A DNA stretch of 63,958 nt, filler included, from Acidimicrobiia bacterium (GTDB lineage Bacteria > Actinomycetota > Acidimicrobiia > Spongiisociales > JAENVV01): assembly GCA_041577335.1 (NCBI GenBank). It is 5 parts of 5 records of this genome, joined end to end, with 100 filler letters (N's around TTAATTAATTAA, not from the genome) between each part and the next. Parts side by side here need not be neighbours in the genome. Positions count along the whole stretch, not along the records: positions 1 to 15,645 come from JBFGJH010000075.1; 4 more parts are not named here. One strand, given 5' to 3'. Shown in pieces: positions 1,063 to 15,892 of the stretch. The position numbers and the translations under genes are program-made. The stretch's first letter is position 1. The number at the start of each line of letters is the position of its first letter. Under the pieces are notes generated by a model. It ran no database searches. It saw only the letters and a program-made list of their open reading frames with translations, and had not been told where the DNA came from.

Positions 1063-1068
1063 TTGGCG

Positions 1069-1236
1069 TGAACCCAGGGTTGAACCCGGGGTTGAGTGTT
1101 TCAGAAATGCAACACTCAGCCCGCAGAACAGTCTTTCCTGAACCCAGGGTTGAACCCGGGGTTCAGCGTTTCAGAAATGCAACACTCAGCCCGCAGAACG
1201 GTCTTATCCGAACCCAGGGCCGAACCCAGGTTCAGG
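1069..1236. repeat. 70-bp tandem repeat (about 2.4 copies) with internal palindromes
   Basis: 1069-1138 and 1139-1208 nearly identical, partial third copy from 1209; core GAACCCAGGGT-TGA-ACCCGGGGTTS. Confidence 0.95.
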
Positions 1237-1310
1237 CATTCGATTGTGAATGGCTCCACCCTGAGAACAACGGTCGAGCGGATGACCCGGTTTCACGCCA
1301 CAATGGCGCC

Positions 1311-1814
1311 ATGCCAGCCGAACTCGTCCCCGGACTGCCCATCGATGTCATCGGGCAGGTGCGCGCCGAAGTGTTCGTTGTCGCCCACGATGGCCAGCAA
1401 GCGCTGCTGACCGGACCTGATGGCCCCCAGCCGTGGCACATCGAGACGGCCGGGTCCGAGCACCCCCTCGATCTCGTTCGGGATATGGCCCACAGCAACA
1501 TGGATGATGTACAGCTGGTGCACTCAACCTCGTGGCGGTGGGACCGCCAGTCGGTGGTGCTCACATTCCTCGTGGTGATCCCACCCGAGACACTCGGATC
1601 CATGACCAGCATCCCGGTCCCGCGAGCCGACCTGGCCCGCTCAACGGCACACGAGGCCCCGGCTGAGATAGCCTTCGCCCAAGTGCTCGAGCACGCCCTC
1701 CGGCATTTGGCGTGGCTGGCCAAGGAGGATGACGTGGTGCGAGAAACGTTGTCGGACGCATGGCACGACGAACTGGCCGGCTATGTTCCGGCTCCGTTCG
1801 AGCAACTCGATTAG
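1311..1814 (+). CDS. Conserved hypothetical protein, possibly degenerate NUDIX-like fold
   Basis: ATG 1311 in frame with ORF 1032-1814 (upstream part is only repeat translation); VHSTSWR..VVLTF motif. Confidence 0.6.
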   Translation: MPAELVPGLPIDVIGQVRAEVFVVAHDGQQALLTGPDGPQPWHIETAGSEHPLDLVRDMAHSNMDDVQLVHSTSWRWDRQSVVLTFLVVIPPETLGSMTSIPVPRADLARSTAHEAPAEIAFAQVLEHALRHLAWLAKEDDVVRETLSDAWHDELAGYVPAPFEQLD

Positions 1815-1822
1815 GAGGAACG

Positions 1823-1975
1823 ATGAAATACAAACTCGCCTGCGATTGCGGTTGGGAAACCCAGGGAAGCGAGGACGAGCTGGTCGCTGCTACCCAGGAG
1901 CACGGCCGCCAACTGCACAACATGGACCTCACGCCAGAACAGGCGATGGCCATGGCCTCGCCGGTCGAGGAGTAG
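1823..1975 (+). CDS. DUF1059-like small metal-binding protein
   Basis: AGGAGG RBS at 1813-1818; MKYKLACDCGW..EDELV..EH..H pattern. Confidence 0.75.
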   Translation: MKYKLACDCGWETQGSEDELVAATQEHGRQLHNMDLTPEQAMAMASPVEE

Positions 1976-2007
1976 GCCGGTCTCCGGACGAGAAGGACGA
2001 CCGCAGC

Positions 2008-2039
2008 GTGTTCCCGGAGCCCCAGTGCCCCGGGAACAC
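2008..2039. terminator. Hairpin between convergent genes
   Basis: GTGTTCCCGG..CCGGGAACAC 10-bp stem. Confidence 0.5.
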
Positions 2040-2055
2040 ACCGCAGACTCTCCGC

Positions 2056-3675
2056 TCAGCGGTTGCGGTGGAACTGATAGAGCTTGTTGACTCCGTCGTC
2101 GGCAACGTAGATCGACTGATCGTTTACCGCGATACCGGACATGAGCCCGAACGGGAAGAACCCTTCTGGGTCTCGACCTGAGTAGTCGAGGCCGACGATC
2201 GCCGGTGAGGCGACTCCGGTGGCCAAATCGATCGCGGTCACCTGCTTGAGGATCGGTTCCACAACCAGGAGGCGGTCACCATCGATGGCCAAGCCCTCTG
2301 GCAGCACGAGCCCTTCTGCGACGAGGCTCGTGCCTGCGTCGGTGACAGCCCAAATGTTGCCGAACGCCCAGTCGCCCACGTAGAGCGTGTTGCCGTCCGA
2401 GGCAAGCCCGAGTGGCAGACCGAGCCCACCGATGAGCACCTCGGAGGTGTTTTCGGCGTTCACCACGTTGCCGGCACCGGCCTGGGCCGCCGCGATGATG
2501 TCACCGTGGCGGACCGCATTGGTGGGGGCGGCCAACGTTCTCACATCCAGCGAGACAGCGCCTGTCGCCGGGTCCATCACCTGGACGGAATTGGCGAATC
2601 CGCTCGACAAGACCAGGTCGTCGCCATCCGCCGATACCGTCATCGAACCGGCGAAGGCTGTTCCCGGCGGAGCGAACCGGTCGTAGAACGACGACGTCCA
2701 CCGCTTGGTGCTCGTGAAGCCGCGCATCGCGAACAGCTCGCTGACCCATACGGTGCCGTCGGGCGAGACAGCCACGCCAGCGGGGAGACCAAGTCCGGCA
2801 GGCGTGATAGCCACCGAGTTGCCCCGCGGGCCTACCCTGACGATCTGGTTGTCCGCACCGACCGCCGCAAAGAGCCGATCGTTGGTTGCGAACGCGATGT
2901 TGTCGATCGTGCCGACGGTGTCCAGTACGACCTCGTGGTTGTTCGCCCCCGAGAAATCGATCTTCATGACGAGGCCTTCGCCGATGTTGACGGCGAACAA
3001 CTCGCCCTTCGAATTGAACTTCGCTGCAGAAGCAACCCCGAAGACGTTCGCCACGATCTCGGAGGTCACCGGAACCGCACTATCGACATCGATCTTGAGG
3101 ATCTCGCCCGTGAAGAACGATGGAGCGTAGAGGTGGCCGTCAGGCCCGAAATCGAAGGAGTTGACATTCAGGTTCTCGTTGAGCAGTTGCGGATCATCCA
3201 CCAGGTTGGGGTCGAGCTCATAGAGTCCCTCGCCGAGGAAGAGACGTCCGACGAAAAGGCGGCCGTCGTCGGACATGGTGATCGGGTTGACACCCGGTCC
3301 TACGAACTGGTGCACCGGGTCGTGGCCCGGCTTGAGCATCCCGACATAACCTCTGAGGATCTCGGTCCAGTACACGGTGCCGTCGTCAGTGATGAAGACG
3401 TCATCGGGACCGTGGACCCCGCGTTCTGGCCCAATGCGATCGAGCAGGTCGCCGGTGTCGGGGTCGTGCACCGTGATCTCGTCGCCTCCGACGCTCGCCA
3501 CATAGACGTTCCCGTCATACGGTGAGACGTAGATCCCGTTGAGGGAGTTCGTCGCGGCGGCCGGGCCAACCTGTCTCCCCTCGGACACGTCCATCGGCTC
3601 TGGTGCCTCCTCAGCGCCTACCGGTACTGCCACCACGAGCAGCAAAGTAAGGACAAAAGCTATGCGGATACGCAT
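2056..3675 (-). CDS. Secreted beta-propeller protein (SMP-30/gluconolactonase/NHL-like)
   Basis: Signal peptide MRIRIAFVLTLLLVVAVPVGA; repeated P.G.A.DG..LYV blades. Confidence 0.75.
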   Translation of the reverse strand: MRIRIAFVLTLLLVVAVPVGAEEAPEPMDVSEGRQVGPAAATNSLNGIYVSPYDGNVYVASVGGDEITVHDPDTGDLLDRIGPERGVHGPDDVFITDDGTVYWTEILRGYVGMLKPGHDPVHQFVGPGVNPITMSDDGRLFVGRLFLGEGLYELDPNLVDDPQLLNENLNVNSFDFGPDGHLYAPSFFTGEILKIDVDSAVPVTSEIVANVFGVASAAKFNSKGELFAVNIGEGLVMKIDFSGANNHEVVLDTVGTIDNIAFATNDRLFAAVGADNQIVRVGPRGNSVAITPAGLGLPAGVAVSPDGTVWVSELFAMRGFTSTKRWTSSFYDRFAPPGTAFAGSMTVSADGDDLVLSSGFANSVQVMDPATGAVSLDVRTLAAPTNAVRHGDIIAAAQAGAGNVVNAENTSEVLIGGLGLPLGLASDGNTLYVGDWAFGNIWAVTDAGTSLVAEGLVLPEGLAIDGDRLLVVEPILKQVTAIDLATGVASPAIVGLDYSGRDPEGFFPFGLMSGIAVNDQSIYVADDGVNKLYQFHRNR

Positions 3676-3760
3676 CGGAACTCCCCAGATCGGCGATGAG
3701 TTACGACCCTACCCATCCCGGCTCTTCCGCGCCCCCTGATTGCGCTGCGAAAGCAGGAAG

Positions 3761-4837
3761 CTACGCCGGAAAGCCCCAGTCGGCGATCATGCGGTCGATC
3801 TCCAGCCGGGCGTAGATCGCCAGCGCCTCCTGGGCCAAGGCACCGTCGGGGTCTTCCTCGTGGATGTTGCCGATGACGATGATGTTCTCGTCGTTGACCC
3901 GGGTTGCCGGCAGAGTGAAGTTGAACGACCCGGCAATGATCACCTGATCGTCGATCACCGCCAGCTTGTGGTGGAGCTTGTTGAGCGGGCCGCCATTGTT
4001 GGACAGGTACAGTTCGATGTTGTCGACGTTCTTCAAACCATGGGTTGCCGCCCACGCCTGGTTTCCCTGGCCGCGATCCATGATCCCCCGGATCTTCACA
4101 CCGGACGACGCCATCGCCCGCAATGTGTCGTCGATGCCGGACGTGTCGGTGAATGTGAACACGGCAAAGTCGATACGCTTCTCCGCCTTCAACATCTGTT
4201 TCATGATCTCCATCTCAGGCGCGTGCTCGGGGGCAAACAACACCTTGACGCGAACACCGGAAGGGCTGTATTCGCGGGGTCGCGGATCGTGGCGCTCACG
4301 CAATGCTCCGAACGTTCCAGTCCACATCTCCTCGAACTCCTCGGAATAGACCCCGGCGGTGCGTTTCCCGCGAACGATCACCAGATGGTTGAGATTCTTG
4401 TGGAGCCCAGTCAGAGTGAAATTGGTGGAACCGGTGAGCACCGCCGCCCGCGACGACGGGCCGTCTGGATCACGGACGATGAACTTCTGGTGGAACGTCT
4501 CCGGATTGAGATCGATCGTGACGTCGATGCCGGCTCGCAACAGAGCAACAAACAGGCGTCGATTCTCATCGTTCGCTCCGCCTGCGACGAACGGATCGAG
4601 CGGCGGGACGTCGAGTCCGAGATAGATGCGCTCGAGAATCACCCGCGTATTCACACCTCGGAGGTGCGCCTCGATCAGCGCTCTGGTCACCGGCTCAGAC
4701 TCGAGTTCCTGGACGGCCACTGCCAGCTCATCGCGCGCTCCAGCGATGAACCCGATGATGGTCGCCTCCAGGTCGTCCGGCGCGCCAACCTCGGGCGGGC
4801 CCATGTAGACCTCGATACTGCCGATATCTGCCGACAT
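3761..4837 (-). CDS. Phospholipase D superfamily protein (two HKD motifs)
   Basis: HQKFIVRD..TGSTN and HHKLAVID..AGSFN. Confidence 0.9.
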   Translation of the reverse strand: MSADIGSIEVYMGPPEVGAPDDLEATIIGFIAGARDELAVAVQELESEPVTRALIEAHLRGVNTRVILERIYLGLDVPPLDPFVAGGANDENRRLFVALLRAGIDVTIDLNPETFHQKFIVRDPDGPSSRAAVLTGSTNFTLTGLHKNLNHLVIVRGKRTAGVYSEEFEEMWTGTFGALRERHDPRPREYSPSGVRVKVLFAPEHAPEMEIMKQMLKAEKRIDFAVFTFTDTSGIDDTLRAMASSGVKIRGIMDRGQGNQAWAATHGLKNVDNIELYLSNNGGPLNKLHHKLAVIDDQVIIAGSFNFTLPATRVNDENIIVIGNIHEEDPDGALAQEALAIYARLEIDRMIADWGFPA

Positions 4838-4907
4838 GCGCTTCCCCCAGTCGTGTCGTGCGAACAGTCAATACTGCCCCATCGGCACGCCACGTGTGGG
4901 CGTGCTG

Positions 4908-5756
4908 CTACCCGTCCCCGTTCACTGCGAAATGGCGACTGTCGAAGGTGATCTTGAGAAATCGGTTCCGTCCGGTGAGATCGGGCAGTATCTCGGTCCG
5001 CTCGAACACCGGGATAGTCAGCGACGCGGCGTCGTCGGCGTGACCGTCACCCACCTCGATGAGCGCCGCTCCGTCAGGCGCCAGCCATCGCGGGAGACCT
5101 TCGATCAGCGGCCGTATCACCGCCAGCCCATCCGTGCCGCCGTGCAGCGCCAGGCGAGGCTCCCATTCCCCGATCTCATCAGGCAGCGCATCCATCTCGG
5201 CGGTGGTGACATACGGAGGGTTCGACACCAAAAGGTCGATCTCTCCGGCAACTGTTCGCGGAATCGCCTCGAAAAGACTGCCCACGTGGAACTCCACGTC
5301 CACACCGTTGCGGTCGGCGTTTTCGTGGGCCAGCGACAGCGCCAGCGGCGAAACGTCGGTGCCGATCACTCGGGCTGTCGGGAATGCCATCTTCAGCGCT
5401 ACGGCAAGGCATCCGGTGCCGGTCCCGATGTCGACGATGACCTGAGGGTGGTCGACATCGGTCGACGCCAACTCGTAGAGCTGCTCGGTCTCGGGGCGCG
5501 GGATCAGCGCTCGCTGATCGACTGCCAGTTCGGCGGGACCGAACGGGATCGAGCCTTCCAGGTACTGAAGAGGCTCACCGGCGCGTCGCGCCGTCACCAT
5601 CGCCTCTAGGTCCGCCGCTTCGCTTTCGCTGATCTCCTTGTCGGCCAGGACCTCACTTCGAGAAAGGCCGGTCGCTGCCATGACCAGGCGGACCATCTCG
5701 TGGTCGGGCAAGTCATCGGCTTGTCGTAGAAGATCTCGGGTTGTCACTGGTCCCAT
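4908..5756 (-). CDS. prmC: Release factor glutamine methyltransferase
   Basis: GEPLQY, LIPRPETE, DIGTGTG, SNPPY; near prfA. Confidence 0.95.
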   Translation of the reverse strand: MGPVTTRDLLRQADDLPDHEMVRLVMAATGLSRSEVLADKEISESEAADLEAMVTARRAGEPLQYLEGSIPFGPAELAVDQRALIPRPETEQLYELASTDVDHPQVIVDIGTGTGCLAVALKMAFPTARVIGTDVSPLALSLAHENADRNGVDVEFHVGSLFEAIPRTVAGEIDLLVSNPPYVTTAEMDALPDEIGEWEPRLALHGGTDGLAVIRPLIEGLPRWLAPDGAALIEVGDGHADDAASLTIPVFERTEILPDLTGRNRFLKITFDSRHFAVNGDG

Positions 5757-6328
5757 GATCCAAAGACTCCCACCAGCACCGTGTCCTCGTTGGCTGCGTA
5801 GAAAACCGTGGCGGCTGTCCCTAGGTAGCGCTTTTCAACATCCTGATCGTCGCCATGCAGATTGTCGACGTCAACTCCGAGTCGCGAGATCACGTCGGTG
5901 GCGTCGAGCCCCACCGCCTCCAGAAACGCCTTTACCGCGGCGACGTTGCCCGCGTCATCCTCTTCACCAGCTCCGTCGATCACGCTGAGCTGCGCCAAGG
6001 TGACAGACCCGTCGGCGACGATCACGTCCACCGCGACGCCGGATCGCCGGTCTTGCGCCACTGCGGTAGGGCCGCCGTCGGGGTCGGCCTGGAGCTCGAG
6101 CACAGGCACGCCGCCGATCGGCTCTACGAGCTCTGCCCACCGACTGGCGAGGTCATCGTATGCCAGGCCCAGCGGCGGGACCATATCGGGATACACGATC
6201 CGCACGGACGAGTTGGTTGCGTGCGGGCCAATCTCGGTCAACTCGTTGTCTTCTTGACCGAGATCGTCGCCGGCGAAACCGCACGCCGCCAGGGTCACGG
6301 CAAGCACGAGGAGGGCGACTCGGGTCAT
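5744..6328 (-). CDS. Hypothetical lipoprotein
   Basis: Lipobox LAAC after hydrophobic stretch; ATGA overlap with prfA stop. Confidence 0.65.
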   Translation of the reverse strand: MTRVALLVLAVTLAACGFAGDDLGQEDNELTEIGPHATNSSVRIVYPDMVPPLGLAYDDLASRWAELVEPIGGVPVLELQADPDGGPTAVAQDRRSGVAVDVIVADGSVTLAQLSVIDGAGEEDDAGNVAAVKAFLEAVGLDATDVISRLGVDVDNLHGDDQDVEKRYLGTAATVFYAANEDTVLVGVFGSWDQ

Positions 6329-7410
6329 TCCCCTTCGGCCAGGCGCCGGGCCTGCTCGTACGTTTGCAGCTGTTCGACGAACTCGTCGAGGTCCCCGTCG
6401 AGAATGGTCGGCAACTGCTTGATGGTGAGACCGATGCGATGGTCGGTGACTCGGCTCTCTTTGTAGTTGTACGTGCGGATCTTTTCGGAGCGCCCACCGC
6501 TGCCGATCTGTGATCGCCGGCTCGCAGCGAGTTCCGCTTGCTGCTCTTCCATCTGAACCTGATAGAGCCGAGCGCGCAGAATCCGGAACGCCTTCTCTTT
6601 GTTCTGGAGCTGCGACTTTTCGTCCTGACAGGAGACGACGGTCCCGGTCGGTTCATGGGTCAGCCGCACTGCCGAGTCGGTGGTGTTCACCGACTGCCCT
6701 CCCGGGCCGGATGACCGATACACGTCGACCCGCACGTCGTTGGGGTCGAGCTCGAAATCGATCTCCTCGACTTCGGGCATCACCGCAACCGTGGCAGTGG
6801 ATGTGTGGATTCGGCCTTGCGACTCGGTCTTGGGGATGCGCTGCACGCGATGGACCCCCGCCTCGAACTTCAAGCGCCCGTAGGCTCCCGCGCCCTTCAC
6901 GGCGAGCGCCACTTCCTTGAACCCGCCGGCCTCAGCCTCCGAGGACGACATGATCTCCGTCCTGAGATTGTGGCGTTCGGCATAACGCTGGTACATGCGG
7001 GCGAGGTCCCCCGCCCAGATGTTGGCTTCATCTCCCCCGGCTGCCCCCCGAATCTCGATGATGACATCGCGAGCGTCGTTGGGGTCCTTGGGTATGAGCG
7101 CCACCTTGAGTTCCCCTGCGAGCCGCTCGGCGGCGGCCGCCTTCTCGCCGGCCAAGAGCTTGAACTCAGCGGCCATGTCGGCATCTTCCTCGGCTCCGGC
7201 CAGCTCCATAGCCTCCGCTTCGTCCTTGAGAAGGGCAGTGAGCTCCTCGTATCCCGCAACGAGCGGCTTCAACTCCGCATGGCGACGGGCAAGGTCGGCA
7301 TAGGCGTTCTGGTCGGCGTGGATTGCCGGATCGGCGAGCTGAGGCTCGATTTCGGCAAAAGACTCGGAAATCTCGGAAAGACGCTCCAGGAGCGTCGGAT
7401 CAACGGTCAT
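6325..7410 (-). CDS. prfA: Peptide chain release factor 1
   Basis: GGQ motif, RF1-type PKT motif (HRVQRIPKTESQGRIHTS), RTYNY. Confidence 0.98.
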   Translation of the reverse strand: MTVDPTLLERLSEISESFAEIEPQLADPAIHADQNAYADLARRHAELKPLVAGYEELTALLKDEAEAMELAGAEEDADMAAEFKLLAGEKAAAAERLAGELKVALIPKDPNDARDVIIEIRGAAGGDEANIWAGDLARMYQRYAERHNLRTEIMSSSEAEAGGFKEVALAVKGAGAYGRLKFEAGVHRVQRIPKTESQGRIHTSTATVAVMPEVEEIDFELDPNDVRVDVYRSSGPGGQSVNTTDSAVRLTHEPTGTVVSCQDEKSQLQNKEKAFRILRARLYQVQMEEQQAELAASRRSQIGSGGRSEKIRTYNYKESRVTDHRIGLTIKQLPTILDGDLDEFVEQLQTYEQARRLAEGE

Positions 7411-8339
7411 TCGCCACTCTCGCCGTCTGCGGGAACGTAGGCCGGCCGGCCGCGACCGAGCACTTCCTCGATCGACGCGTCATCAAGCGCGGCAAGCAGC
7501 GACGCCACGGCCACCTCGACCTGATCGGCGTCTGGCTCGCCGGTGGTGAGCCGCTGTAACCACAGGCCCGGAGCAGCCAAGATGCGCCCGGCCCACCCAT
7601 CGGCACGCAGGCCCGACCATCGCAGCAGTTCGTAGGACGCCCCGGCAATCACGGGAATGAAGATGATGCGGCTGGTGATGAGCCACCACACAGGGCCGCG
7701 ACCGATGATCGAAAACAGCACGATCGATGCCAGGAGAACGATCAGCAGAAAGCTCGTGCCGCAGCGCGGATGCTCAGGCCGGTATTTCTGGATTTCTTCC
7801 ACAGACAGGCGATCACCGGCTTCATAGGCGTGGATCGTCTTGTGCTCTGCCCCGTGATATTGGAACACTCGGCGGATGTCTTCGAGGCGGCCGATGAGCC
7901 AGATGTAGCCCACGAACAAGGCAATCCTGATGACCCCCTCCAGGGTCGCGAACAGCCAATCGCTCTCGGAGGCGAGCCAATCGGCGGCGGCGGCCGGACC
8001 GAGAATGAAGACGAGAGCGAACACCACCAATGCGACCGTCATCGAGCCAATCAGTTGAGCCTTGCCCAGCTCCTCTTCCTCTTCCTCGGCCTGTTTGTGA
8101 GCCGACCAAGTGAGAGCTCGCATACCGAGCGTCAGCGATTCGCCCAGCACCATGACTCCCCGAATGAATGGGATTTTGGCGAGACGGGATCGAGAAGAGA
8201 GCCGGGGCAGTTCTTCGGACCGAGTTTCGATCTGGCCATTGGGAGTGCGCACGGCAATCGCCCAGCCCGACGGGGCACGCATCATGACACCCTCGATGAC
8301 GGCCTGGCCACCGACGGTTTTCTGGGGATCGCTGCTCAC
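7407..8339 (-). CDS. DUF1385 (YqhQ-like) membrane protein
   Basis: GGQAVIEGVMM, FQYHGAEHK, HPRCGTSF; GTG start 8339 with GAGGAG RBS. Confidence 0.9.
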   Translation of the reverse strand: MSSDPQKTVGGQAVIEGVMMRAPSGWAIAVRTPNGQIETRSEELPRLSSRSRLAKIPFIRGVMVLGESLTLGMRALTWSAHKQAEEEEEELGKAQLIGSMTVALVVFALVFILGPAAAADWLASESDWLFATLEGVIRIALFVGYIWLIGRLEDIRRVFQYHGAEHKTIHAYEAGDRLSVEEIQKYRPEHPRCGTSFLLIVLLASIVLFSIIGRGPVWWLITSRIIFIPVIAGASYELLRWSGLRADGWAGRILAAPGLWLQRLTTGEPDADQVEVAVASLLAALDDASIEEVLGRGRPAYVPADGESGE

Positions 8340-8371
8340 TCGGGTGATTCTCCTCGATGTTCCGGAATACA

Positions 8372-8401
8372 TGAAACCACCGCCCGGAGGCGGTGGTTTC
8401 A
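8372..8401 (-). terminator. Hairpin/terminator after rpmE
   Basis: TGAAACCACCGCC-CGGA-GGCGGTGGTTTCA perfect 13-bp stem. Confidence 0.7.
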
Positions 8402-8417
8402 GGTGACTGCGGTGCGG

Positions 8418-8666
8418 TTAAGCCTCAGCTGCGTCGGGCTTGGCAGATGCCTTCTTCGCATCGGACTTCGCTTTGGCGGCACGTTTCTGGAACCGCTCGA
8501 CCCGCCCACCGGTGTCGACGAGCTTCTGTCGGCCGGTGAAGAAAGGATGACACTCGTTGCACAGTTCAGCGTTGATCTGGCTCACGGTGGACCGAGTGAT
8601 GAACTCGTTGCCGCAGGAGCAGTGCACCTTGGTCTCTTTGTAGTCGGGGTGGATGTCAGTTTTCAC
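8418..8666 (-). CDS. rpmE: 50S ribosomal protein L31 (Zn-binding type)
   Basis: [33 protein letters not shown]. Confidence 0.98.
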
Positions 8667-8703
8667 GTCGTGGTCTCCTCTCGGCCGAAGTATGCCCTTT
8701 GCG

Positions 8704-10284
<1,581 letters not shown>

Positions 10285-10585
10285 TTGATCCTTTCCCCCA
10301 GCTGGACGACCGGAAGGTCAGCGAGCGATATGCATGGTCACCGCGACGTTCAAAAAGGCATGAGCCGAATGAACGGGTGAAAAAGGAATCTGCACCTGCG
10401 GTGAGTGCGAGGCTTCATTTTAGGCGGGGATGAGCGCCACGACAAGTTTTCCGGGTTGGCGCCGGTTTCGGCTGCCGATTCGACTATGTCCCAGCCGGCC
10501 GCCGTCTCGAGCCACCGCCCCCAGTCTGGCCCACGATCCCCAATGGTCGGGCTTGCCCAGGGGCGCGGGACCTGCCGGACGACAC

Positions 10586-11980
10586 TCAGTGTGTGCTGGC
10601 GGCTCGCACCGCACCTTTCACCGTCTTCAAATCGTTGTCGAGCACGTCGAATCGCTCGTCGCGCTCATACAGATCTTGTAGCTCCGGAGGGAGTTCGGGG
10701 CGGGTGCCAGTGGCCCTCTCGACGGCATCAGGGAATTTGGCCGGATGAGCCGTCGCAATCGCGACGAATGGCGAACCTGGCTGGCGGGGCCGCATGTAGG
10801 CGGCTGCCAAGCCGATGGCCGTGTGCGGGTCCACCGTGACCTTGTGGTCCGCAGCGACCTGGCCGATGAAGCCTTCGACTGCCTGATCGGACATCCACAT
10901 CGAGTCGAACACACTCTTGGCCGTGCTGAGCCGAGCCGAAGGCACCGACATGGTGCCGTTGCGCCGGAACGCCTCCATCGCCTTCGCCAGCGCAACACCG
11001 TCGTGGTCGTAGAGCTCGAAGAGCAGCCGTTCGAGGTTCGAAGGAATCTGGATGTCCATGGCTGGGGTGATGGTGGGCGTGACCGTGTCGATGGTCAGTG
11101 TGCCGGTGCGGAAGAAGCGGTTGAGACCGTTGTTGCGATTGTTGCCGGCGACAAGCCAGTTGATGGGCACGCCAATCGCACGCGCCACATAACCGGCATA
11201 GATGTTCCCGAAGTTGCCAGTCGGCACGGAAAACCCCAGCCCCGACTCCGTGGCGTCGAGTTGTAGGGTCGCCCAGAGGTAATAGGTGACTTGCGCCATG
11301 ATCCGGCCGAAATTGATCGAGTTGACCGCCGAAAGACTCAGATCATCCCGGAACACGGCGTCGGCGAACATCGCCTTGACCAGATCTTGGCAGTCGTCGA
11401 AGGTTCCCTCGATGGCGATGTTGTGGATGTTGTCGTGGCTGACCGTGGTCATCTGCCTGCGCTGGACCTCCGACACCCTGCCGTGGGGATGGAGGATGAT
11501 GACGTCGACGGACGGCCGTCCGCCCAATGCCTCGATGGCCGCCGACCCGGTATCTCCGGAGGTCGCCCCGACGATGGTGAGGCGCTCGCTGCGCCGGGTG
11601 AGCAACCGGTCGAACAACACACCGAGCAGCTGGAGGGCGTAGTCCTTGAACGACAAGGTCGGGCCCCAGAAGAGCTCCAGCAGGTACAGGTCGTCGTCGA
11701 GTTGGGTGAGGGGCGCCACTTCGTCATGACGAAAGCCTCGATAGGCCTCCGCAGCAGCCTCATCGAGCTCGGCTGCAGTGAATGCCTCTCCCACGAAGCG
11801 GCCCGCGACCGCGGCCGCCAGCTGTGGATATGACAGCGTGCGAAGTCCGTCGAGCTCGGCAACCGTCATCTGGGGCCAGGCCTCCGGTATGAACAGCCCT
11901 CCGTCGGCGGCAAGCCCGGCCAGCAGCACTTCTTGGAAAGTAGCCCCCGATACGCCGCCCCGGGTGGATTGGTATCGCAC
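10586..11980 (-). CDS. thrC: Threonine synthase (long, class II type)
   Basis: GTG start RYQSTRG, GLAADGGL, GPTLSFKD, ATSGDTG, NSIN, ATAHPAKF. Confidence 0.95.
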   Translation of the reverse strand: MRYQSTRGGVSGATFQEVLLAGLAADGGLFIPEAWPQMTVAELDGLRTLSYPQLAAAVAGRFVGEAFTAAELDEAAAEAYRGFRHDEVAPLTQLDDDLYLLELFWGPTLSFKDYALQLLGVLFDRLLTRRSERLTIVGATSGDTGSAAIEALGGRPSVDVIILHPHGRVSEVQRRQMTTVSHDNIHNIAIEGTFDDCQDLVKAMFADAVFRDDLSLSAVNSINFGRIMAQVTYYLWATLQLDATESGLGFSVPTGNFGNIYAGYVARAIGVPINWLVAGNNRNNGLNRFFRTGTLTIDTVTPTITPAMDIQIPSNLERLLFELYDHDGVALAKAMEAFRRNGTMSVPSARLSTAKSVFDSMWMSDQAVEGFIGQVAADHKVTVDPHTAIGLAAAYMRPRQPGSPFVAIATAHPAKFPDAVERATGTRPELPPELQDLYERDERFDVLDNDLKTVKGAVRAASTH

Positions 11981-11982
11981 GC

Positions 11983-13269
11983 TCAGCCTTCGTCGCCGTG
12001 CACCCGAATGGTGGCGGCGACCTGGCGGACAACATCCAGCCCGGACACTTCGTCCACGGCTGCGCGAAGATCCCGTTCCAAAGCGTGATGGGTCACGAGC
12101 AGCAGGGTCGCCGAGTCGCCGCGCCCCTCCTGCCACACAGAGCCAATCGATACACCGTGTTCTCCAAAGGCCCCGGCAATTCGGGCGAGCACACCGGGCG
12201 CATCGGCGACTTCGAGGCGCACATACCACCGGGTGGAGACACCCTCGAATTCGGCAAGCGGGGTTTCGCCAAACCGGACCTTCGGGCTCACCGGAGCGCC
12301 TGCAAGATGCTCGCGAGCAGCATCGATGAGGTCTCCGAGTACGGCGGTGGCGGTGGGATCACCGCCGGCGCCCGGTCCGGAGAAGAGAAGCTCCCCAATG
12401 GCGGGGCCCTCGAGGTAGATCGCATTGTGAGCGCCCCGAACACTGGCCAGCGGATGATCGTGCTCGACCATTGTCGGATGGACTCGGACCGACACTCCGT
12501 CGTCCACCAACTCGGCCACTGCCAGCAGCTTGATGGCGTAGCCGAGATCGGCGGCCAGCCGGATATCGGTGGCGCCGATCGATTCGATGCCCTCGCGAAA
12601 AACGCCCGCTCCATGCACCCACGTGCCGAAGGACAGTGAGGCGAGAATGGCAGCTTTGGATGCGGCGTCGCCGCCGGATACGTCGGCGGTGGGATCTGCC
12701 TCGGCGTAACCAAGGGTTTGTGCCTCGGCGAGAGCCTCCCGGTAGTCAAGGCCTTCGTCGGTCATCTGGGTGAGGATGAAGTTGGTGGTGCCGTTGACGA
12801 TTCCGAGCACGCGAGAGATCTTCTCACCAGACAGGCTCTGAGAGAGGGGGCGAATGATGGGAATGCCTCCACCGACGGCCGCCTCGAACAGCAGTGACAC
12901 GCCCGCCTGCTCGGCTGCCTCGAAGAGCTCCTGGCCGCGCGCTGCGATCAGCTCCTTGTTGGCCGTCACCACAGGCTTGCCCGCCTGGAGGGCGGCGAGA
13001 ACCAGATCGCCGGCCGGCTCCAGGCCCCCCATCAGCTCCACGACGAGAACGACGCTGGGATCGTTGACAACTTCCTCTGGTTGATCGGTGAGAAGCCCGG
13101 CCGGCGCCTCGAACTGCCGCGGCTTGTTCAGATCGCGTACCGAAACGCGCTTGAGCTCCAGCGCAAGCCCCGATTTGGCGGCGATCACATTCGACTCTTC
13201 GATCAAGCGTCGGGCAAGCGAGCCGCCCACCGTTCCCCCGCCGAGAATTCCTACTCCAACGACTGACAT
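11983..13269 (-). CDS. hom: Homoserine dehydrogenase with ACT domain
   Basis: GGGTVG, VTANK, EAAVGGGIP, NGTTN, GYAEADP, C-terminal DAPGVLA. Confidence 0.97.
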   Translation of the reverse strand: MSVVGVGILGGGTVGGSLARRLIEESNVIAAKSGLALELKRVSVRDLNKPRQFEAPAGLLTDQPEEVVNDPSVVLVVELMGGLEPAGDLVLAALQAGKPVVTANKELIAARGQELFEAAEQAGVSLLFEAAVGGGIPIIRPLSQSLSGEKISRVLGIVNGTTNFILTQMTDEGLDYREALAEAQTLGYAEADPTADVSGGDAASKAAILASLSFGTWVHGAGVFREGIESIGATDIRLAADLGYAIKLLAVAELVDDGVSVRVHPTMVEHDHPLASVRGAHNAIYLEGPAIGELLFSGPGAGGDPTATAVLGDLIDAAREHLAGAPVSPKVRFGETPLAEFEGVSTRWYVRLEVADAPGVLARIAGAFGEHGVSIGSVWQEGRGDSATLLLVTHHALERDLRAAVDEVSGLDVVRQVAATIRVHGDEG

Positions 13270-13313
13270 GGCGAGCACGTTAGCGGGCAACACTCAGGGC
13301 TCAGGCGCGGCGA

Positions 13314-14549
13314 TCATCGAACGACGTCGGACACCGACTCCCCGGCGACGGCCACACGGGCGGCACCGTCTGCCACGAACACCACGGGACGGCGCGGCAG
13401 CATGTTGTAGCGGCTCGACATCGAAAAACCATATGCGCCGGTCGCAGGAACCGCGATGAGATCACCGGGGCCGGTGGCAGCCGGTAAGTCGGCCGTCGTG
13501 ATCCGGTCCCCTGTCTCGCAGTGTCGACCTACGAGTCGAAAAGCGTGATCAGCGACCTCGCCGGGCCTCGTGAGCGCTATTGCCTCGTAACGAGCACCGT
13601 ACAGTGCCGGCCTCGGGTTGTCGGAGATGCCTCCGTCGACGGCGAGGAATGGTGGATCCGAGTCCTTTCTCACACCCACTCGATAGAGGGACACTCCGGC
13701 ATTGGCCACGACGCTACGCCCCGGCTCGACGATCAGGCGCACAGGCCGATCGCCGATCGCCTCGCCCACTGCTGCTGCGTAGTCCGCAATGGGTGTTACC
13801 GGATCGGCGCGAACGTAGGGCGCCGCCATCCCCCCTCCGATATCGAGCTCGTACCGGTCTCCAAACACCCCGGGGCGCTCCTCGACGAATTCGATGGCGG
13901 CTTGGGCGGCGGCTCGGTGCGACCGGGGATCGGCGATCTGGCTACCAATGTGGACATGCACGCCAACGATGTTCACGGGCCCGGCGCGCGCTGCCTCGAT
14001 CGAGGCGTCCCCGGCGTCCGCCGACATCCCAAAGTGAACGTCGGCACCACTGGTGCGGATGTGGGGGTGCGTGTCCGCCCCAACATCCACGTTGAGCCGC
14101 AACAACGCCGCCATCGGCTCGGAGGCCTGAGCGCCCAGCCGCACGATATCGGTTGGGTCGTCGATGATGACCCGACCCACGCCATTGGCAGCCGCAGTCG
14201 CCAACTCGCCATCCGTCTTGAAGTTGCCGTGAAACAGGATGCGGCCGGCCGGGATTCCTCCCCGAATGGCAGTGGCCATCTCACCAGCCGAGACCACGTC
14301 GACCCACCAGCCTGCCTCGGCCAAGACCTCGGCCATCGCTACGCAAAAGAACGATTTGGCCGCAAAGGCCAGGCGGGCGTCGGTGCCAAACGCCTCGCGA
14401 AACACCGCCAATCGCTGACGAATATGCGCCTCGTCGACAACGTAGACCGGAGTTCCGTGGAGGGCGGCGATCTCGACGAGCTCGACCCCGCCAACCGTGG
14501 GTGAGTCGGCATCGGTCCAGGTCAATGGAAGGACGTCAGAGAGAGCCAT
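13314..14549 (-). CDS. lysA: Diaminopimelate decarboxylase
   Basis: GTPVY, FAAKSF, HGNFK, HVHIGSQI, EPGRS, CETGD, TGAY; upstream of hom. Confidence 0.9.
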   Translation of the reverse strand: MALSDVLPLTWTDADSPTVGGVELVEIAALHGTPVYVVDEAHIRQRLAVFREAFGTDARLAFAAKSFFCVAMAEVLAEAGWWVDVVSAGEMATAIRGGIPAGRILFHGNFKTDGELATAAANGVGRVIIDDPTDIVRLGAQASEPMAALLRLNVDVGADTHPHIRTSGADVHFGMSADAGDASIEAARAGPVNIVGVHVHIGSQIADPRSHRAAAQAAIEFVEERPGVFGDRYELDIGGGMAAPYVRADPVTPIADYAAAVGEAIGDRPVRLIVEPGRSVVANAGVSLYRVGVRKDSDPPFLAVDGGISDNPRPALYGARYEAIALTRPGEVADHAFRLVGRHCETGDRITTADLPAATGPGDLIAVPATGAYGFSMSSRYNMLPRRPVVFVADGAARVAVAGESVSDVVR

Positions 14550-14652
14550 GCGGCGGCATGGTACTCAGGCATCCCATCCGAGATCCCCGACATTCCAGAG
14601 GCGCACAGCAACACTCTTCTCTTCTAATACTCTCAAAGGATTGTTCTACTTC

Positions 14653-14685
14653 TTGACAGAGCGCTAACTATCATTATAGTGCTCT
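14653..14685 (+). promoter_or_regulatory. Sigma70-type promoter with overlapping inverted repeat
   Basis: TTGACA 14653-58, 16 bp, TATAGT 14675-80; AGAGCGCTA..TAGTGCTCT imperfect IR 14658-14685; AT-rich context. Confidence 0.75.
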
Positions 14686-14734
14686 AGAACGCTTCACAGA
14701 GAGGCACGGCACACGGCTACACAAGGAGGACGCC

Positions 14735-15055
14735 ATGGCCAGCGACATCAAGGCAATCATGGAACCGGGTTTCATGGGAGAGCTCCGGACCGCGATCGGA
14801 ACCTGCCAGACCGACCTCGACGCCGCCCTCATGGCGCTCGAGACCAAGCACGGGGCACGGACCGGGCTGTGGGAGGACGCTCCTGGCATTCGAGGCCCCG
14901 CCCAGACGTTTGGCGACTTGCTGAACGAGTTCCGCACCGTCACTCTGAAGAGCTTCGTGGACAACCTGACGACGACATCCAGCAACGTCCAGAGTTACGA
15001 GGCGGCCATGGCGCAGGTCGCGACCGACTTCAACTTCGCCAACACTGCAGGCTGA
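14735..15055 (+). CDS. WXG100-like small helical protein (106 aa)
   Basis: AAGGAGG RBS; two amphipathic helices around W46 (WED..GPAQTF); C-terminal YEAA; no signal peptide. Confidence 0.6.
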   Translation: MASDIKAIMEPGFMGELRTAIGTCQTDLDAALMALETKHGARTGLWEDAPGIRGPAQTFGDLLNEFRTVTLKSFVDNLTTTSSNVQSYEAAMAQVATDFNFANTAG

Positions 15056-15065
15056 TGACCGGAGA

Positions 15066-15118
15066 AACGGCGTGGCGGGAGAAGATCGCCAGGGTGACTT
15101 CTCCTGCCACCGTCCGTT
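15066..15118 (+). other. Long intergenic stem-loop
   Basis: AACGG-CGTGGCGGGAGAAG..CTTCTCCTGCCAC-CGT-CCGTT. Confidence 0.7.
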
Positions 15119-15142
15119 GGGGGGGCAGGAGGGACGAGCACC

Positions 15143-15406
15143 ATGGCAACGCTGGCGACGTATGAGTATGTGCAGAGTCGGCTGATCACGCTGAAATATG
15201 GGCTCTACGACGCCGAGGCCGCCATCCGGACCTATCGGAACGGAGTCGACGAAGCGATCGAAGGCCCGGTGACACAAACGTTGGAAGGCGAAGCCGACGG
15301 CTGGATCGGAAAACTCGACTCGGCCCAGTGGGCGGTTGACGTGTATTGGGAGGGCTACGTCGCCGACAAAATCGCCGAGCTGGAAGCTGCAACGGAGCCC
15401 GAGTGA
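15143..15406 (+). CDS. Small helical protein, WXG100-like partner (87 aa)
   Basis: GGAGG RBS; acidic helical hairpin with central IEGP turn; GTGA overlap with next ORF. Confidence 0.55.
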   Translation: MATLATYEYVQSRLITLKYGLYDAEAAIRTYRNGVDEAIEGPVTQTLEGEADGWIGKLDSAQWAVDVYWEGYVADKIAELEAATEPE

Positions 15407-15645
15407 GCACCGTTGCCACGACCGCCGCAACGGGCGCCAAGCGGGTCGTCGCACTGAGCCCCGACGGCAGCCGCCACGCCTATCACCTGACGACCTCTGG
15501 CAGCGCCACCGTCGGCGACGTCGTCGAAGCGCTCACCAACCGAACGGGCCACGAATGGCCGACGACCCTGTTCGTCAACGGTCAGGGATTCCCGGCGTCG
15601 ATGTCTTTGGCGGACGTTCCCATCGAGGACGGTACGTTGCTGGCA
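15403..15645 (+). CDS. N-terminal YukD/EsaB ubiquitin-like domain, possibly start of an FtsK/EssC-like ATPase (3'-truncated)
   Basis: ATVGDVVEAL..LFVNG..SLADVPIEDGTLL beta-grasp pattern; runs into gap. Confidence 0.55.
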
Positions 15646-15745
15646 NNNNNNNNNNNNNNNNNNNNNNNNNNNNNNNNNNNNNNNNNNNNTTAATTAATTA
15701 ANNNNNNNNNNNNNNNNNNNNNNNNNNNNNNNNNNNNNNNNNNNN
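15646..15745. other. Artificial contig linker
   Basis: N44-TTAATTAATTAA-N44. Confidence 0.99.
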
Positions 15746-15892
15746 CACGAGGGCAACGCCTTGGTGAAACACGTCCCAAGAGTCCACACCCAGACCGGCG
15801 GCGAGCATGAGGGCGATGCTCACGCCGAAGAGGACCAGGCCGAGCGCGAGGCGGACCAGCCTGTTCGGGATGTCGGTGTGGTTCGTTGTCAT
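15746..15892 (-). CDS. YczE/YitT-family membrane protein (partial)
   Basis: GLVLFGVSIALMLAAGLGVDSWDVFHQG. Confidence 0.85.

What the first reader, a model, noticed from the sequence alone, without database searches (positions are those of the whole stretch)
14735..15645. Candidate atypical type VII secretion locus: two divergent WXG100-like proteins plus YukD-like domain
Seen: two signal-less helical proteins of 106 and 87 aa with strong RBSs. The first has central W46 followed by an apparent 5-residue insertion before GPAQTF and a C-terminal Tyr; the second has IEGP at the turn. A translationally coupled third ORF shows a ubiquitin-like pattern (ATVGDVVEAL..LFVNG..LADVPIEDG). Known: T7SS loci pair WXG100 substrates with EsaB/YukD domains and an FtsK-type EccC/EssC ATPase. 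Inference: the start of a non-canonical T7SS-like operon with degenerate WxG motifs, cut by the contig end.
Basis: inference. Interest (0 to 1): 0.75.

Follow-up and report, generated by a model that had tools for sequence, protein, structure and literature searches.

The report
Stripped-down type VII secretion cassette
Three coupled genes in an uncultured Acidimicrobiia bacterium look like a minimal type VII-like protein export module: two small helical proteins too diverged for family models to recognise, and a membrane ATPase motor carrying its own ubiquitin-like domain.

Summary
ORF1 (14735-15055, 106 aa), ORF2 (15143-15406, 87 aa) and ORF3 (from GTG 15403) are real genes, cut at a contig end (15645).

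ORF3 is the N-terminus of a 1352-aa EssC/EccC-type ATPase. It continues on contig C7 of the same genome (241-nt overlap, 97.9% identical). Public contigs from two other runs also run past 15645.

The ATPase N-terminus folds as a ubiquitin-like beta-grasp followed by a degenerate FHA domain. Two membrane helices and FtsK-type P-loop domains follow; Pfam matches two stretches, and I found one canonical Walker A and three Walker-B-like motifs.

ORF1 is a very diverged WXG100-like protein with W-E-D in place of W-x-G. The evidence is weak but consistent: EsxA is the top PDB profile hit (E 0.046), and hhalign to neighbouring WXG100 genes gives E 7.7e-4. ORF2 folds as a helical hairpin (pLDDT 90) with no detectable sequence relatives in known families.

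The order ORF1-ORF2-ATPase recurs in 7 related Acidimicrobiia loci. More distant relatives carry Pfam-recognisable WXG100 genes in the same position.

No EccB, EccE, YukC, YukD, TcpC or EspG match was found in the 91%-complete genome.

This is a new variant of a known kind. This scan met the Ubl-fused motor before on other genomes; the unrecognisable substrate pair is what is new here.

The parts
14653..14680 (+). Sigma-70-type promoter-like site, TTGACA-16 nt-TATAGT, in the lysA/ORF1 divergent intergenic region
   Evidence: 11 of 12 matches; 1 site found against a mean of 0.1 in shuffles. This is a consensus match only.
14723..14729 (+). Ribosome-binding site AAGGAGG for ORF1
   Evidence: Read directly from the sequence.
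14735..15055 (+). ORF1, 106 aa: diverged WXG100-like protein with W46-E-D48 in place of W-x-G and a conserved C-terminal FNFA motif
   Evidence: 11-member family, 26 invariant columns. EsxA 2vrz is the top PDB profile hit, E 0.046, with the tryptophans aligned; hhalign to neighbouring WXG100s, E 7.7e-4 over 78 columns. ESAT6_2, E 0.079; look-alike clusters are WXG100/EspC/PE. No Pfam hit. Its fold was not predicted.
15072..15110 (+). Intercistronic stem-loop between ORF1 and ORF2
   Evidence: MFE -46 kcal/mol for 15050-15150, z -3.0, 1 of 200 shuffles folds as well. The sequence is not conserved in relatives. Function unknown.
15143..15406 (+). ORF2, 87 aa: helical-hairpin protein (helices 4-37 and 42-84) with turn A-I-E-G-P; candidate partner of ORF1
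   Evidence: 12-member family, 17 invariant columns. AlphaFold2 pLDDT 90.3; the hairpin fold matches many proteins, including EsxA 3zbh (Z 9.4, rmsd 1.8, 85 aligned), so it is not specific. No sequence link to any family.
15403..15645 (+). 5' end of the EssC/EccC-type ATPase gene (GTG start overlapping the ORF2 stop), encoding the N-terminal ubiquitin-like beta-grasp domain. It is cut by the contig end and continues as G000:C7:2-4060.
   Evidence: (241-nt overlap, 97.9% identity); beta-grasp at residues 11-80. ISG15 Z 9.7, rmsd 2.2, 74 aligned; contigs of runs X3 and X2 extend 869 and 420 nt past 15645.

Best explanation
This is a three-gene, translationally coupled type VII-like (Esx-type) secretion cassette in an Acidimicrobiia genome.

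The motor is a 1352-aa EssC/EccC-family membrane ATPase. Its layout is: ubiquitin-like beta-grasp, then an FHA fold that lacks the phosphothreonine-binding residues, then a conserved FNRPPR linker, two transmembrane helices, and FtsK-type P-loop domains. Only one Walker A motif is canonical.

Inferred mechanism. ORF1 (a WXG100 descendant) and ORF2 (a helical hairpin) are the cognate small substrates or co-substrates. They probably form a hairpin dimer that docks on the C-terminal ATPase domain and is exported across the single membrane when the ATPase multimerises. The fused Ubl-FHA module would do in cis what free YukD does for the FHA region of YukB in Bacillus, namely organise assembly.

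What is shown: gene structure, conservation, the folds of the ATPase N-terminus and of ORF2, the ATPase family, and the lack of matches to known T7SS partner families in this genome. What is inferred: ORF1-ORF2 pairing, secretion, and the role of the Ubl-FHA module.
For: ATPase identity:
- PF01580, E 2.3e-36, two stretches.
- TIGR03928 E 2.1e-128 and TIGR03924 E 1.4e-106.
- PDB: 4NH0 EccC 1.2e-80, YukB 7.5e-57, EccC5 8.7e-56.
- Walker A GTTGAGKS at 615, three Walker-B-like motifs, and two hydrophobic helices at about 216-260.

ATPase N-terminus:
- AlphaFold2 pLDDT 82, with a beta-beta-alpha-beta-beta pattern at residues 11-80 and a beta-sandwich at 93-173.
- FHA matches: OdhI Z 12.1, rmsd 2.3, 86 aligned; GarA Foldseek E 2.6e-4.
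- Ubiquitin-like matches: ISG15 Z 9.7; also ubiquitin, SUMO and NEDD8.
- Homologues' N-termini hit FHA or YscD models in 11 of 19 and YukD weakly in 2 of 19.

Small proteins:
- ORF1 profile: top PDB hits are EsxA (E 0.046, 0.05) and an ESAT-6-like protein (E 0.094), with the tryptophans aligned.
- hhalign of ORF1 against the WXG100 genes of related loci: E 7.7e-4 over 78 columns.
- Atlas look-alikes are WXG100/EspC/PE clusters, score 0.91.
- ORF2 is a hairpin at pLDDT 90.3.

Position:
- ORF1-ORF2-ATPase recurs in 7 related loci, with a 4-nt stop/start overlap in 8 of 8.
- Outside this clade, 21 of 51 loci scanned have a PF06013 hit (23 proteins, 12 above the cut-off) among upstream same-strand ORFs. 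It often comes as a pair right before the ATPase, for example in L015, L016, L017 and L020.

Literature: YukD binds YukB and stabilises its FHA domains (PMC12637312, abstract and passages).
Against: - No Pfam family matches ORF1, ORF2 or the ATPase N-terminus, even at E 10.
- PF06013 and PF08817 find nothing anywhere in the genome.
- The W-x-G glycine is Asp in 11 of 11 ORF1 family members.
- ORF2 has no significant profile similarity to ORF1, to neighbouring WXG100s or to PDB sequences.
- ORF2's fold matches many unrelated hairpins equally well.
- The ORF1 evidence is marginal throughout (E 0.046-0.09; hhalign probability 25%), and its fold was not predicted.
- The ATPase scores below the curated cut-offs of both EssC and EccC models.
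- No other known T7SS membrane component was found, so the export path is incomplete by any studied model.
- Continuity with contig C7 is inferred from a 97.9% overlap, not from a single contig.
- There are no expression or secretion data.
Confidence: 0.72

Rival explanations
1. The ATPase is a type VII-type motor, but ORF1 and ORF2 are not exported. They would be cytoplasmic adaptors, chaperones or regulators for substrates encoded elsewhere or not yet recognised.
For: The canonical W-x-G is missing, and the Y-x-x-x-D/E signal (recalled from the literature) is also absent from the window's proteins. A YxxxD string occurs in only 6 of 12 ORF2 family members and not in the window's own protein. 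ORF2 matches no secreted family. In Bacillota, small WXG100-like hairpins serve as targeting partners (PMC11217815, abstract).
Against: Profile searches of the whole genome found no other WXG100-like, ORF1-like or ORF2-like gene and no T7SS_signal domain (where the control genomes were also blank). No larger cargo is therefore visible. In studied systems the small hairpin proteins encoded next to the ATPase are themselves exported (established knowledge).
Confidence: 0.15
2. The cassette is a decaying or repurposed remnant of a fuller type VII system. Its partners are lost and its motifs eroded, and it no longer secretes.
For: The FHA lacks the G-R, S-x-x-H and N-G-T residues that distant relatives retain. 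W-x-G is lost. Only one canonical Walker A remains. No partner genes were found.
Against: All three genes are intact. They keep their order and their stop/start overlap in 8 of 8 loci across lineages whose ATPases are only about 41-68% identical. The small proteins have many invariant positions. There is a near-consensus promoter and strong ribosome-binding sites. Degenerate Walker motifs in the second and third ATPase domains, and FHA domains that cannot bind phosphothreonine, are also normal in working EssC proteins (PMC11217815, passage).
Confidence: 0.08
3. The FtsK/SpoIIIE protein is a DNA translocase for conjugation or chromosome segregation, and the small genes are unrelated neighbours.
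For: PF01580 is shared with DNA pumps. There are weak hits to FtsK, TraB and TrwB models.
Against: EssC and EccC models score about 100 orders of magnitude better than FtsK or TraB. Multi-P-loop architecture with an N-terminal membrane anchor is the EccC plan. A separate bona fide FtsK is on contig C9. No relaxase or plasmid genes lie nearby.
Confidence: 0.03

Closest known systems
T7SSb (Ess/Yuk) of Bacillota: EsxA/YukE, EssC/YukB with N-terminal FHA domains, and the free ubiquitin-like EsaB/YukD
   Same: A membrane FtsK-type ATPase with an N-terminal FHA fold that lacks phosphothreonine-binding residues, a ubiquitin-like module, and small helical-hairpin proteins encoded just upstream (PMC11217815 and PMC12637312, passages).
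   Different: Here the ubiquitin-like domain is fused to the ATPase. There is one FHA fold rather than two. No YukC/EssB match was found. The hairpin proteins fail the WXG100 model and lack W-x-G. The phylum is Actinomycetota.
T7SSa / ESX of Actinomycetota (EccB, EccC, EccD, EccE, MycP, EsxA/B); closest solved motor is Thermomonospora curvata EccC, PDB 4NH0
   Same: This is the best sequence match of the ATPase core (E 1.2e-80). The phylum is the same, and there is a pair of about 100-aa proteins upstream.
   Different: No EccB, EccE or YukD-type (EccD) match was found in the genome. EccC has no Ubl or FHA N-terminus (PMC11217815, passage). In the Actinobacteria surveyed in PMC1779556 (passage), the ubiquitin-like domain was always on the 12-helix membrane protein, not on the ATPase.
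T7SSd of Actinomycetota (Olsenella, Bifidobacterium), Garrett et al. 2024
   Same: An actinobacterial system with an FHA-bearing ATPase and few core parts (PMC11217815, passages).
   Different: T7SSd has no ubiquitin-like component at all and keeps the phosphothreonine-binding FHA consensus. It also has further core components, TsdD, TsdH and TsdI. Here a Ubl is fused, the FHA is degenerate, and no such partners were seen.
Ubl-FHA-fused EccC-like motors with recognisable WXG100 partners in other Acidimicrobiia, Solirubrobacterales and Pseudonocardia (loci L013-L084; earlier scan notes e1-2214482 and e1-1174466)
   Same: The same N-terminal Ubl-FHA-FNRPPR-TM plan. The Ubl profile hits 61 of 80 related loci and the FHA profile 65 of 80 (the profiles were built from 19 of these loci). 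The chromosomal neighbourhood near lysA/hom/thrC is the same in L041, L046 and L053.
   Different: Those loci keep Pfam-recognisable WXG100 genes with W-x-G, and often a canonical FHA. Some carry extra genes such as TcpC-like, EspG, kinase or FHA proteins. The window's clade (6 ATPase rows, local support 100) has the unrecognisable ORF1/ORF2 pair and a degenerate FHA.

Membership tests
WXG100 (PF06013), ORF1 | Match to the family HMM at its gathering score (27.3 bits) | tested here: not met
   No Pfam family at E up to 10. The genome-wide PF06013 search was blank.
WXG100 (PF06013), ORF1 | Central W-x-G motif in the turn of a protein of about 100 aa | tested here: not met
   The length fits (106 aa) and W46 is invariant, but the motif is W-E/Q-D in 11 of 11 members, with G54-P55 a few residues later.
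WXG100 (PF06013), ORF1 | Detectable remote homology to known WXG100 proteins | tested here: inconclusive
   EsxA is the top PDB hit (E 0.046) over 83 profile positions with the tryptophans aligned. hhalign to neighbouring WXG100s: E 7.7e-4, probability 25%. ESAT6_2: E 0.079. Atlas score 0.91. A HMMER profile search of 1.84 billion representatives found only 4 true clusters and no bridge to known families.
WXG100 (PF06013), ORF1 | Helix-turn-helix hairpin fold | not tested
WXG100 (PF06013), ORF2 | Helix-turn-helix hairpin of about 100 aa | tested here: met
   AlphaFold2 pLDDT 90.3, helices 4-37 and 42-84. EsxA 3zbh Z 9.4, rmsd 1.8, 85 aligned, but unrelated hairpins score up to Z 10.7.
WXG100 (PF06013), ORF2 | HMM match and W-x-G motif | tested here: not met
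   No Pfam or NCBIfam hit. The turn is A-I-x-x-P with no W-x-G. hhalign to WXG100 sets is not significant.
WXG100 proteins in general | Encoded next to an EssC/EccC ATPase | tested here: met
   Both genes lie directly upstream of, and are coupled to, the ATPase gene in 8 of 8 loci.
YukD/EsaB (PF08817) | Ubiquitin-like beta-grasp fold | tested here: met
   Residues 7-83: ISG15 Z 9.7, rmsd 2.2, 74 aligned; also ubiquitin, SUMO and NEDD8.
YukD/EsaB (PF08817) | Match to the family HMM | tested here: not met
   No hit for the window's protein or anywhere in the genome. Only 2 of 19 homologous N-termini reach E 0.04.
YukD/EsaB (PF08817) | Small stand-alone protein | tested here: not met
   It is the N-terminal domain of the 1352-aa ATPase.
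EssC/EccC T7SS ATPase | Membrane-anchored protein with several FtsK/SpoIIIE P-loop domains, most similar to EssC/EccC | tested here: met
   PF01580. Closest PDB sequences are EccC, YukB and EccC5. Two hydrophobic helices, one canonical Walker A and three Walker-B-like motifs.
EssC/EccC T7SS ATPase | Score above the NCBIfam equivalog cut-offs (TIGR03928 778 bits; TIGR03924 509 bits) | tested here: not met
   430 and 358 bits. It belongs to the superfamily but is neither a canonical EssC nor a canonical EccC.
FHA domain (PF00498) | FHA beta-sandwich fold | tested here: met
   Residues 89-176: OdhI Z 12.1, rmsd 2.3, 86 aligned; GarA Foldseek E 2.6e-4.
FHA domain (PF00498) | Phosphothreonine-binding residues (G-R, S-x-x-H, N-G-T) | tested here: not met
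   In alignment A3 the window's clade has a gap or other residues where L056, L042, L040, L078, L038 and L067 keep these motifs. No Pfam FHA hit for the window's own protein.
T7SSa (ESX) | EccB, EccD, EccE and MycP present | tested here: not met
   No PF05108, PF11203 or PF08817 match in the 90.75%-complete genome. MycP was not searched. Absence from an incomplete genome is not proof.
T7SSb (Ess/Yuk) | EssB/YukC, EssA and EsaA present | tested here: not met
   No PF10140 match. EssA and EsaA were not searched.

The most novel reading that the evidence does not exclude
The three genes are a self-sufficient, minimal type VII system. A single membrane ATPase has its ubiquitin-like assembly factor and FHA built in, forms the whole translocon without any EccB/D/E- or EssA/B-type partner, and exports a hairpin pair that has dispensed with the W-x-G motif. 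That would define the irreducible core of type VII secretion and show that W-x-G is not required for recognition.
Probability: 0.25. Interest if true: 0.7.

Novelty: new variant of a known kind. Interest (0 to 1): 0.5.

Why it matters
Type VII secretion is studied almost entirely in mycobacteria and Bacillota. In both, the ATPase needs several phylum-specific membrane partners, and the role of the ubiquitin-like component was resolved only recently.

A widespread, unstudied actinobacterial motor with the ubiquitin-like domain fused next to its FHA domain is a natural 'Rosetta stone' for the YukD-FHA interaction seen by cryo-EM. A genome in which only this motor and two small hairpin proteins can be found is a good candidate for defining the minimal export machine.

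The ORF1/ORF2 pair also shows that substrates of such systems can drift beyond the reach of the WXG100 model. Surveys that anchor on PF06013 would therefore miss these loci.

The practical value is modest until secretion is shown.

Tried and rejected
- Complex prediction of ORF1 with ORF2 (alignments A1 and A2): no verdict, scores 0.07 and 0.01 against a mark of 0.32, controls not run. This is no evidence either way.
- Word-indexed homologue searches found only 5 relatives for ORF1 and 7 for ORF2. They found none for ATPase residues 1-215 at E 0.001.
- Iterated local profiles gained no members beyond the 7 loci.
- The profile search of 1.84 billion representatives with A1 gave 4 true clusters plus 11 long multi-stretch proteins (854-5320 aa). 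I did not examine those and take them for coiled-coil noise.
- hhalign of A1 vs A5, A2 vs A4, A2 vs A5 and A1 vs A2 was not significant.
- The ORF2 fold searches gave no specific match. Foldseek had none at E 0.001, and VIA's top rows are unrelated hairpins.
- YukD itself did not appear among the 50 rows shown for the N-terminal model. That is not evidence against a relationship.
- The 192-aa ORF after the ATPase gene (L004 4297-4875) is unconserved. The opposite-strand 247-aa ORF looks to me like an alpha/beta hydrolase (my reading of a GHSGAG motif), but it has no Pfam hit.
- Own-genome searches for TcpC, T7SS_signal and EspG were blank. For the last two the control genomes were also blank, so those searches say little.
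- No RNA holder was listed among the sequencing runs.
- Literature: no paper held both 'type VII secretion' and 'Acidimicrobiia'. Searches for YukD/beta-grasp/FtsK/fused and for EccC/ubiquitin-like domain/FHA domain returned no paper whose listing or read passages describe a Ubl-ATPase fusion. PMC13622651 (passages) was not relevant.
- Earlier notes of this scan near this place: none.
Full report
WHAT IS THERE

Window 1-15645 is one contig (G000:C75). Positions 15646-15746 are N runs around TTAATTAATTAA, an artificial join.

After the divergently transcribed lysA (13314-14549, minus strand; Pfam Orn_Arg_deC_N) comes an AT-richer spacer. It holds a TTGACA-16-TATAGT promoter-like site at 14653-14680; 1 was found against 0.1 expected.

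Three genes follow:
- ORF1 (14735-15055, 106 aa), preceded by AAGGAGG.
- An 87-nt spacer that folds into a strong stem-loop (z -3.0).
- ORF2 (15143-15406, 87 aa).
- A third frame whose GTG at 15403 overlaps the ORF2 stop (GTGA) and runs to the contig end.

Neither small protein has a hydrophobic segment.

THE THIRD ORF IS THE START OF A TYPE VII-TYPE ATPASE

Contig C7 of the same genome begins with 241 nt that are 97.9% identical to window 15405-15645. It continues as a 5'-open frame of 1352 aa. The region occurs nowhere else in the genome.

I read the break as an assembly break caused by strain variants. That is an inference. Independently, Logan contigs of two other runs cover the end of the window and run on for 869 nt (X3) and 420 nt (X2) beyond 15645.

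The protein has these features:
- PF01580 (E 2.3e-36, two stretches).
- TIGR03928 EssC (E 2.1e-128) and TIGR03924 EccCa (E 1.4e-106), both under their curated cut-offs.
- Closest PDB sequences: T. curvata EccC 4NH0 (E 1.2e-80), B. subtilis YukB (7.5e-57) and EccC5 (8.7e-56).
- Two hydrophobic helices at about 216-260, one canonical Walker A (GTTGAGKS, residue 615) and three Walker-B-like motifs.

A separate ordinary FtsK is on contig C9.

THE ATPASE N-TERMINUS

I aligned 19 N-termini (A3). AlphaFold2 gives pLDDT 82, with a beta-beta-alpha-beta-beta-beta unit at residues 11-80 and a beta-sandwich at 93-173.
- The sandwich is an FHA fold: OdhI Z 12.1, rmsd 2.3, 86 aligned; GarA Foldseek E 2.6e-4.
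- The first unit is ubiquitin-like: ISG15 Z 9.7, rmsd 2.2, 74 aligned; also ubiquitin, SUMO and NEDD8.

The window's own sequence matches no Pfam model. Among the 19 homologues, 11 hit Yop-YscD_cpl, 8 hit FHA and 2 hit YukD weakly (E 0.04).

In the alignment, distant members keep the G-R, S-x-x-H and N-G-T signatures of phosphothreonine-binding FHA domains (motif names recalled). The window's clade has lost them. An FNRPPR motif before the membrane helices is invariant.

Profiles of the Ubl and FHA parts hit the N-terminus of the large ATPase ORF in 61 and 65 of 80 related loci. These include Solirubrobacterales, Pseudonocardia and, for the FHA part, Streptomyces. Several of the misses are 5'-truncated contigs, and the profiles were built from 19 of these same loci. 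The fused layout is therefore widespread in Actinomycetota.

THE SMALL PROTEINS

Both families are rare.
- Word-indexed searches found 5 relatives for ORF1 and 7 for ORF2.
- A HMMER profile search of 1.84 billion representatives found only 4 true ORF1 clusters.
- Of 80 loci encoding relatives of the ATPase (444 confirmed, best 80 kept), 7 carry both proteins: L006, L007, L008, L010, L011, L012 and L050. They are in the same order directly before the ATPase, with an ATGA overlap in 7 of 7.
- Iteration added none.

ORF1 (A1, 11 sequences) has 26 invariant columns. These include W46, D48, G54-P55, T58-F59-G60, Y88 and N100-F101. The motif is W-E/Q-D, not W-x-G.

The links between ORF1 and WXG100 are weak but all point the same way:
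- Top PDB profile hits are S. aureus EsxA (E 0.046 and 0.05) and an ESAT-6-like protein (E 0.094), nearly full length, with the tryptophans aligned.
- NCBIfam ESAT6_2, E 0.079.
- Atlas look-alikes are WXG100/EspC/PE clusters at 0.91.
- hhalign against the WXG100 genes of related loci (A4) gives E 7.7e-4, probability 25%, 78 columns, with the tryptophans aligned.

ORF2 (A2, 12 sequences, 17 invariant columns) folds as a two-helix hairpin at pLDDT 90.3. It has no significant sequence or profile relative. Its fold matches many hairpins; EsxA 3zbh scores Z 9.4 against a top Z of 10.7.

POSITIONAL EVIDENCE

I selected 127 same-strand upstream ORFs by third-position GC and scanned 97 of them, from 56 loci. 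I left out the ORF1/ORF2-type ORFs and ORFs lying inside or overlapping the ATPase gene.

PF06013 hit 23 proteins in 21 of the 51 loci outside the clade, 12 of them above the cut-off. In L015, L016, L017, L020, L029 and others, a WXG100 of about 91 aa and a second protein of 112-123 aa sit immediately before the ATPase. Both carry W-x-G. This is the arrangement that ORF1 and ORF2 occupy.

In a FastTree of 67 ATPase rows, the ORF1/ORF2-type loci plus the 5'-truncated L005 form one clade (local support 100), separate from clades with recognisable WXG100s. The root is not known. L018, L031 and L067 sit on very long branches, and there the largest ORF may not be the ATPase.

WHAT IS MISSING

Within the cassette's surroundings I found only housekeeping genes:
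- Upstream: lysA, hom and thrC.
- Downstream on C7: a convergent 247-aa ORF with no Pfam hit, then Ku and a ParA-like gene.

The genome is 90.75% complete in 128 contigs. It gave no match to PF06013, PF08817, EccB, EccE, YukC, TcpC, T7SS_signal or EspG. For the last two the control genomes were also blank. Local profile searches found no paralogue of ORF1, ORF2 or the neighbours' WXG100s. MycP, EssA and EsaA were not searched.

Distant relatives do carry accessory genes near the ATPase:
- TcpC-like proteins in L013, L015 and L016.
- EspG in L015.
- Abhydrolase_8 proteins in L015 and L016.
- An FHA protein, a Ser/Thr kinase and a 503-aa protein with a WXG100/T7SS_signal N-terminus in L056.

HOW IT MOST LIKELY WORKS

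This section is inference. ORF1 and ORF2 are made from one transcript with the ATPase. They pair as hairpins and are recognised by the C-terminal ATPase domain of a multimeric membrane motor that exports them across the single membrane.

The fused Ubl-FHA module would act in assembly. In B. subtilis, free YukD binds YukB, stabilises its FHA domains and enables complex formation (PMC12637312, abstract and passages).

Whether the motor works alone or with unrecognised partners is open.

COMPARISON AND NOVELTY

Garrett et al. 2024 describe subtypes T7SSa to T7SSj (PMC11217815; abstract and passages read, not the supplements). The passages I read mention neither Acidimicrobiia (0 occurrences) nor an ATPase-fused ubiquitin-like domain. 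T7SSd, the other actinobacterial type, is stated to lack any ubiquitin-like component.

Iyer et al. 2006 state that the actinobacterial YukD domain is always fused to a 12-helix membrane protein (PMC1779556, passages).

Two earlier notes of this scan (e1-2214482 and e1-1174466) describe the same Ubl-FHA-fused motor on other genomes, so the motor type is not new to the scan. What is particular here is a lineage in which the partner proteins have drifted out of reach of the WXG100 model, the FHA is degenerate, and nothing but the three genes is found.

VERDICT

This is a new variant of a known kind, of moderate interest.

Noticed in passing
window 15646-15746: N runs flanking TTAATTAATTAA. The window is a concatenation of contigs, so features on either side of this spacer are not neighbours in the genome.
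   Followed up: yes
window 15405-15645 vs G000:C7:1-241: The two contig ends overlap by 241 nt at 97.9% identity (5 differences, two of them changing residues of the Ubl domain). This suggests that co-assembled strain variants broke the assembly inside this gene.
   Followed up: partly
window 15072-15110; L006 and L007 intergenic region: A strong stem-loop lies between ORF1 and ORF2 (z -3.0). L006 and L007 have a different inverted repeat (CCGCCCGG...CCGGGCGG) at the same place. This may be an mRNA-processing or stability element that sets the ratio of the two products.
   Followed up: partly
window 10586-14549; L041, L046, L053: The cassette sits beside the lysA-hom-thrC genes in several Acidimicrobiia lineages but at different points: after lysA here and in L006-L008, and between hom and lysA-argS in L041, L046 and L053.
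   Followed up: partly
alignment A2 (ORF2 family), window residues 68-72: A Y-x-x-x-D string, reminiscent of the ESX export motif (recalled), is present in 6 of 12 family members (L006, L007, L008, L010, L012, L050). In the window's subclade it is replaced by Y/F-W-E-x-Y/W.
   Followed up: no
L013 4157-5110, L015 3384-4502, L016 3113-4036 (minus strand): TcpC-like (PF12642) proteins are encoded just upstream of the WXG100-ATPase genes in three distant Acidimicrobiia loci. They are a candidate extra membrane component of this T7SS variant and are not matched in the window's genome.
   Followed up: partly
L029, L054: Contigs titled as Gammaproteobacteria and Burkholderia MAGs carry ATPases that nest among Acidimicrobiia and Solirubrobacterales sequences in the tree. 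They are probably mis-binned contigs.
   Followed up: no
L004 5024-5935, 8315-9250: Ku and an ATP-dependent DNA ligase (non-homologous end-joining genes) lie a few kb downstream of the ATPase gene on contig C7.
   Followed up: no
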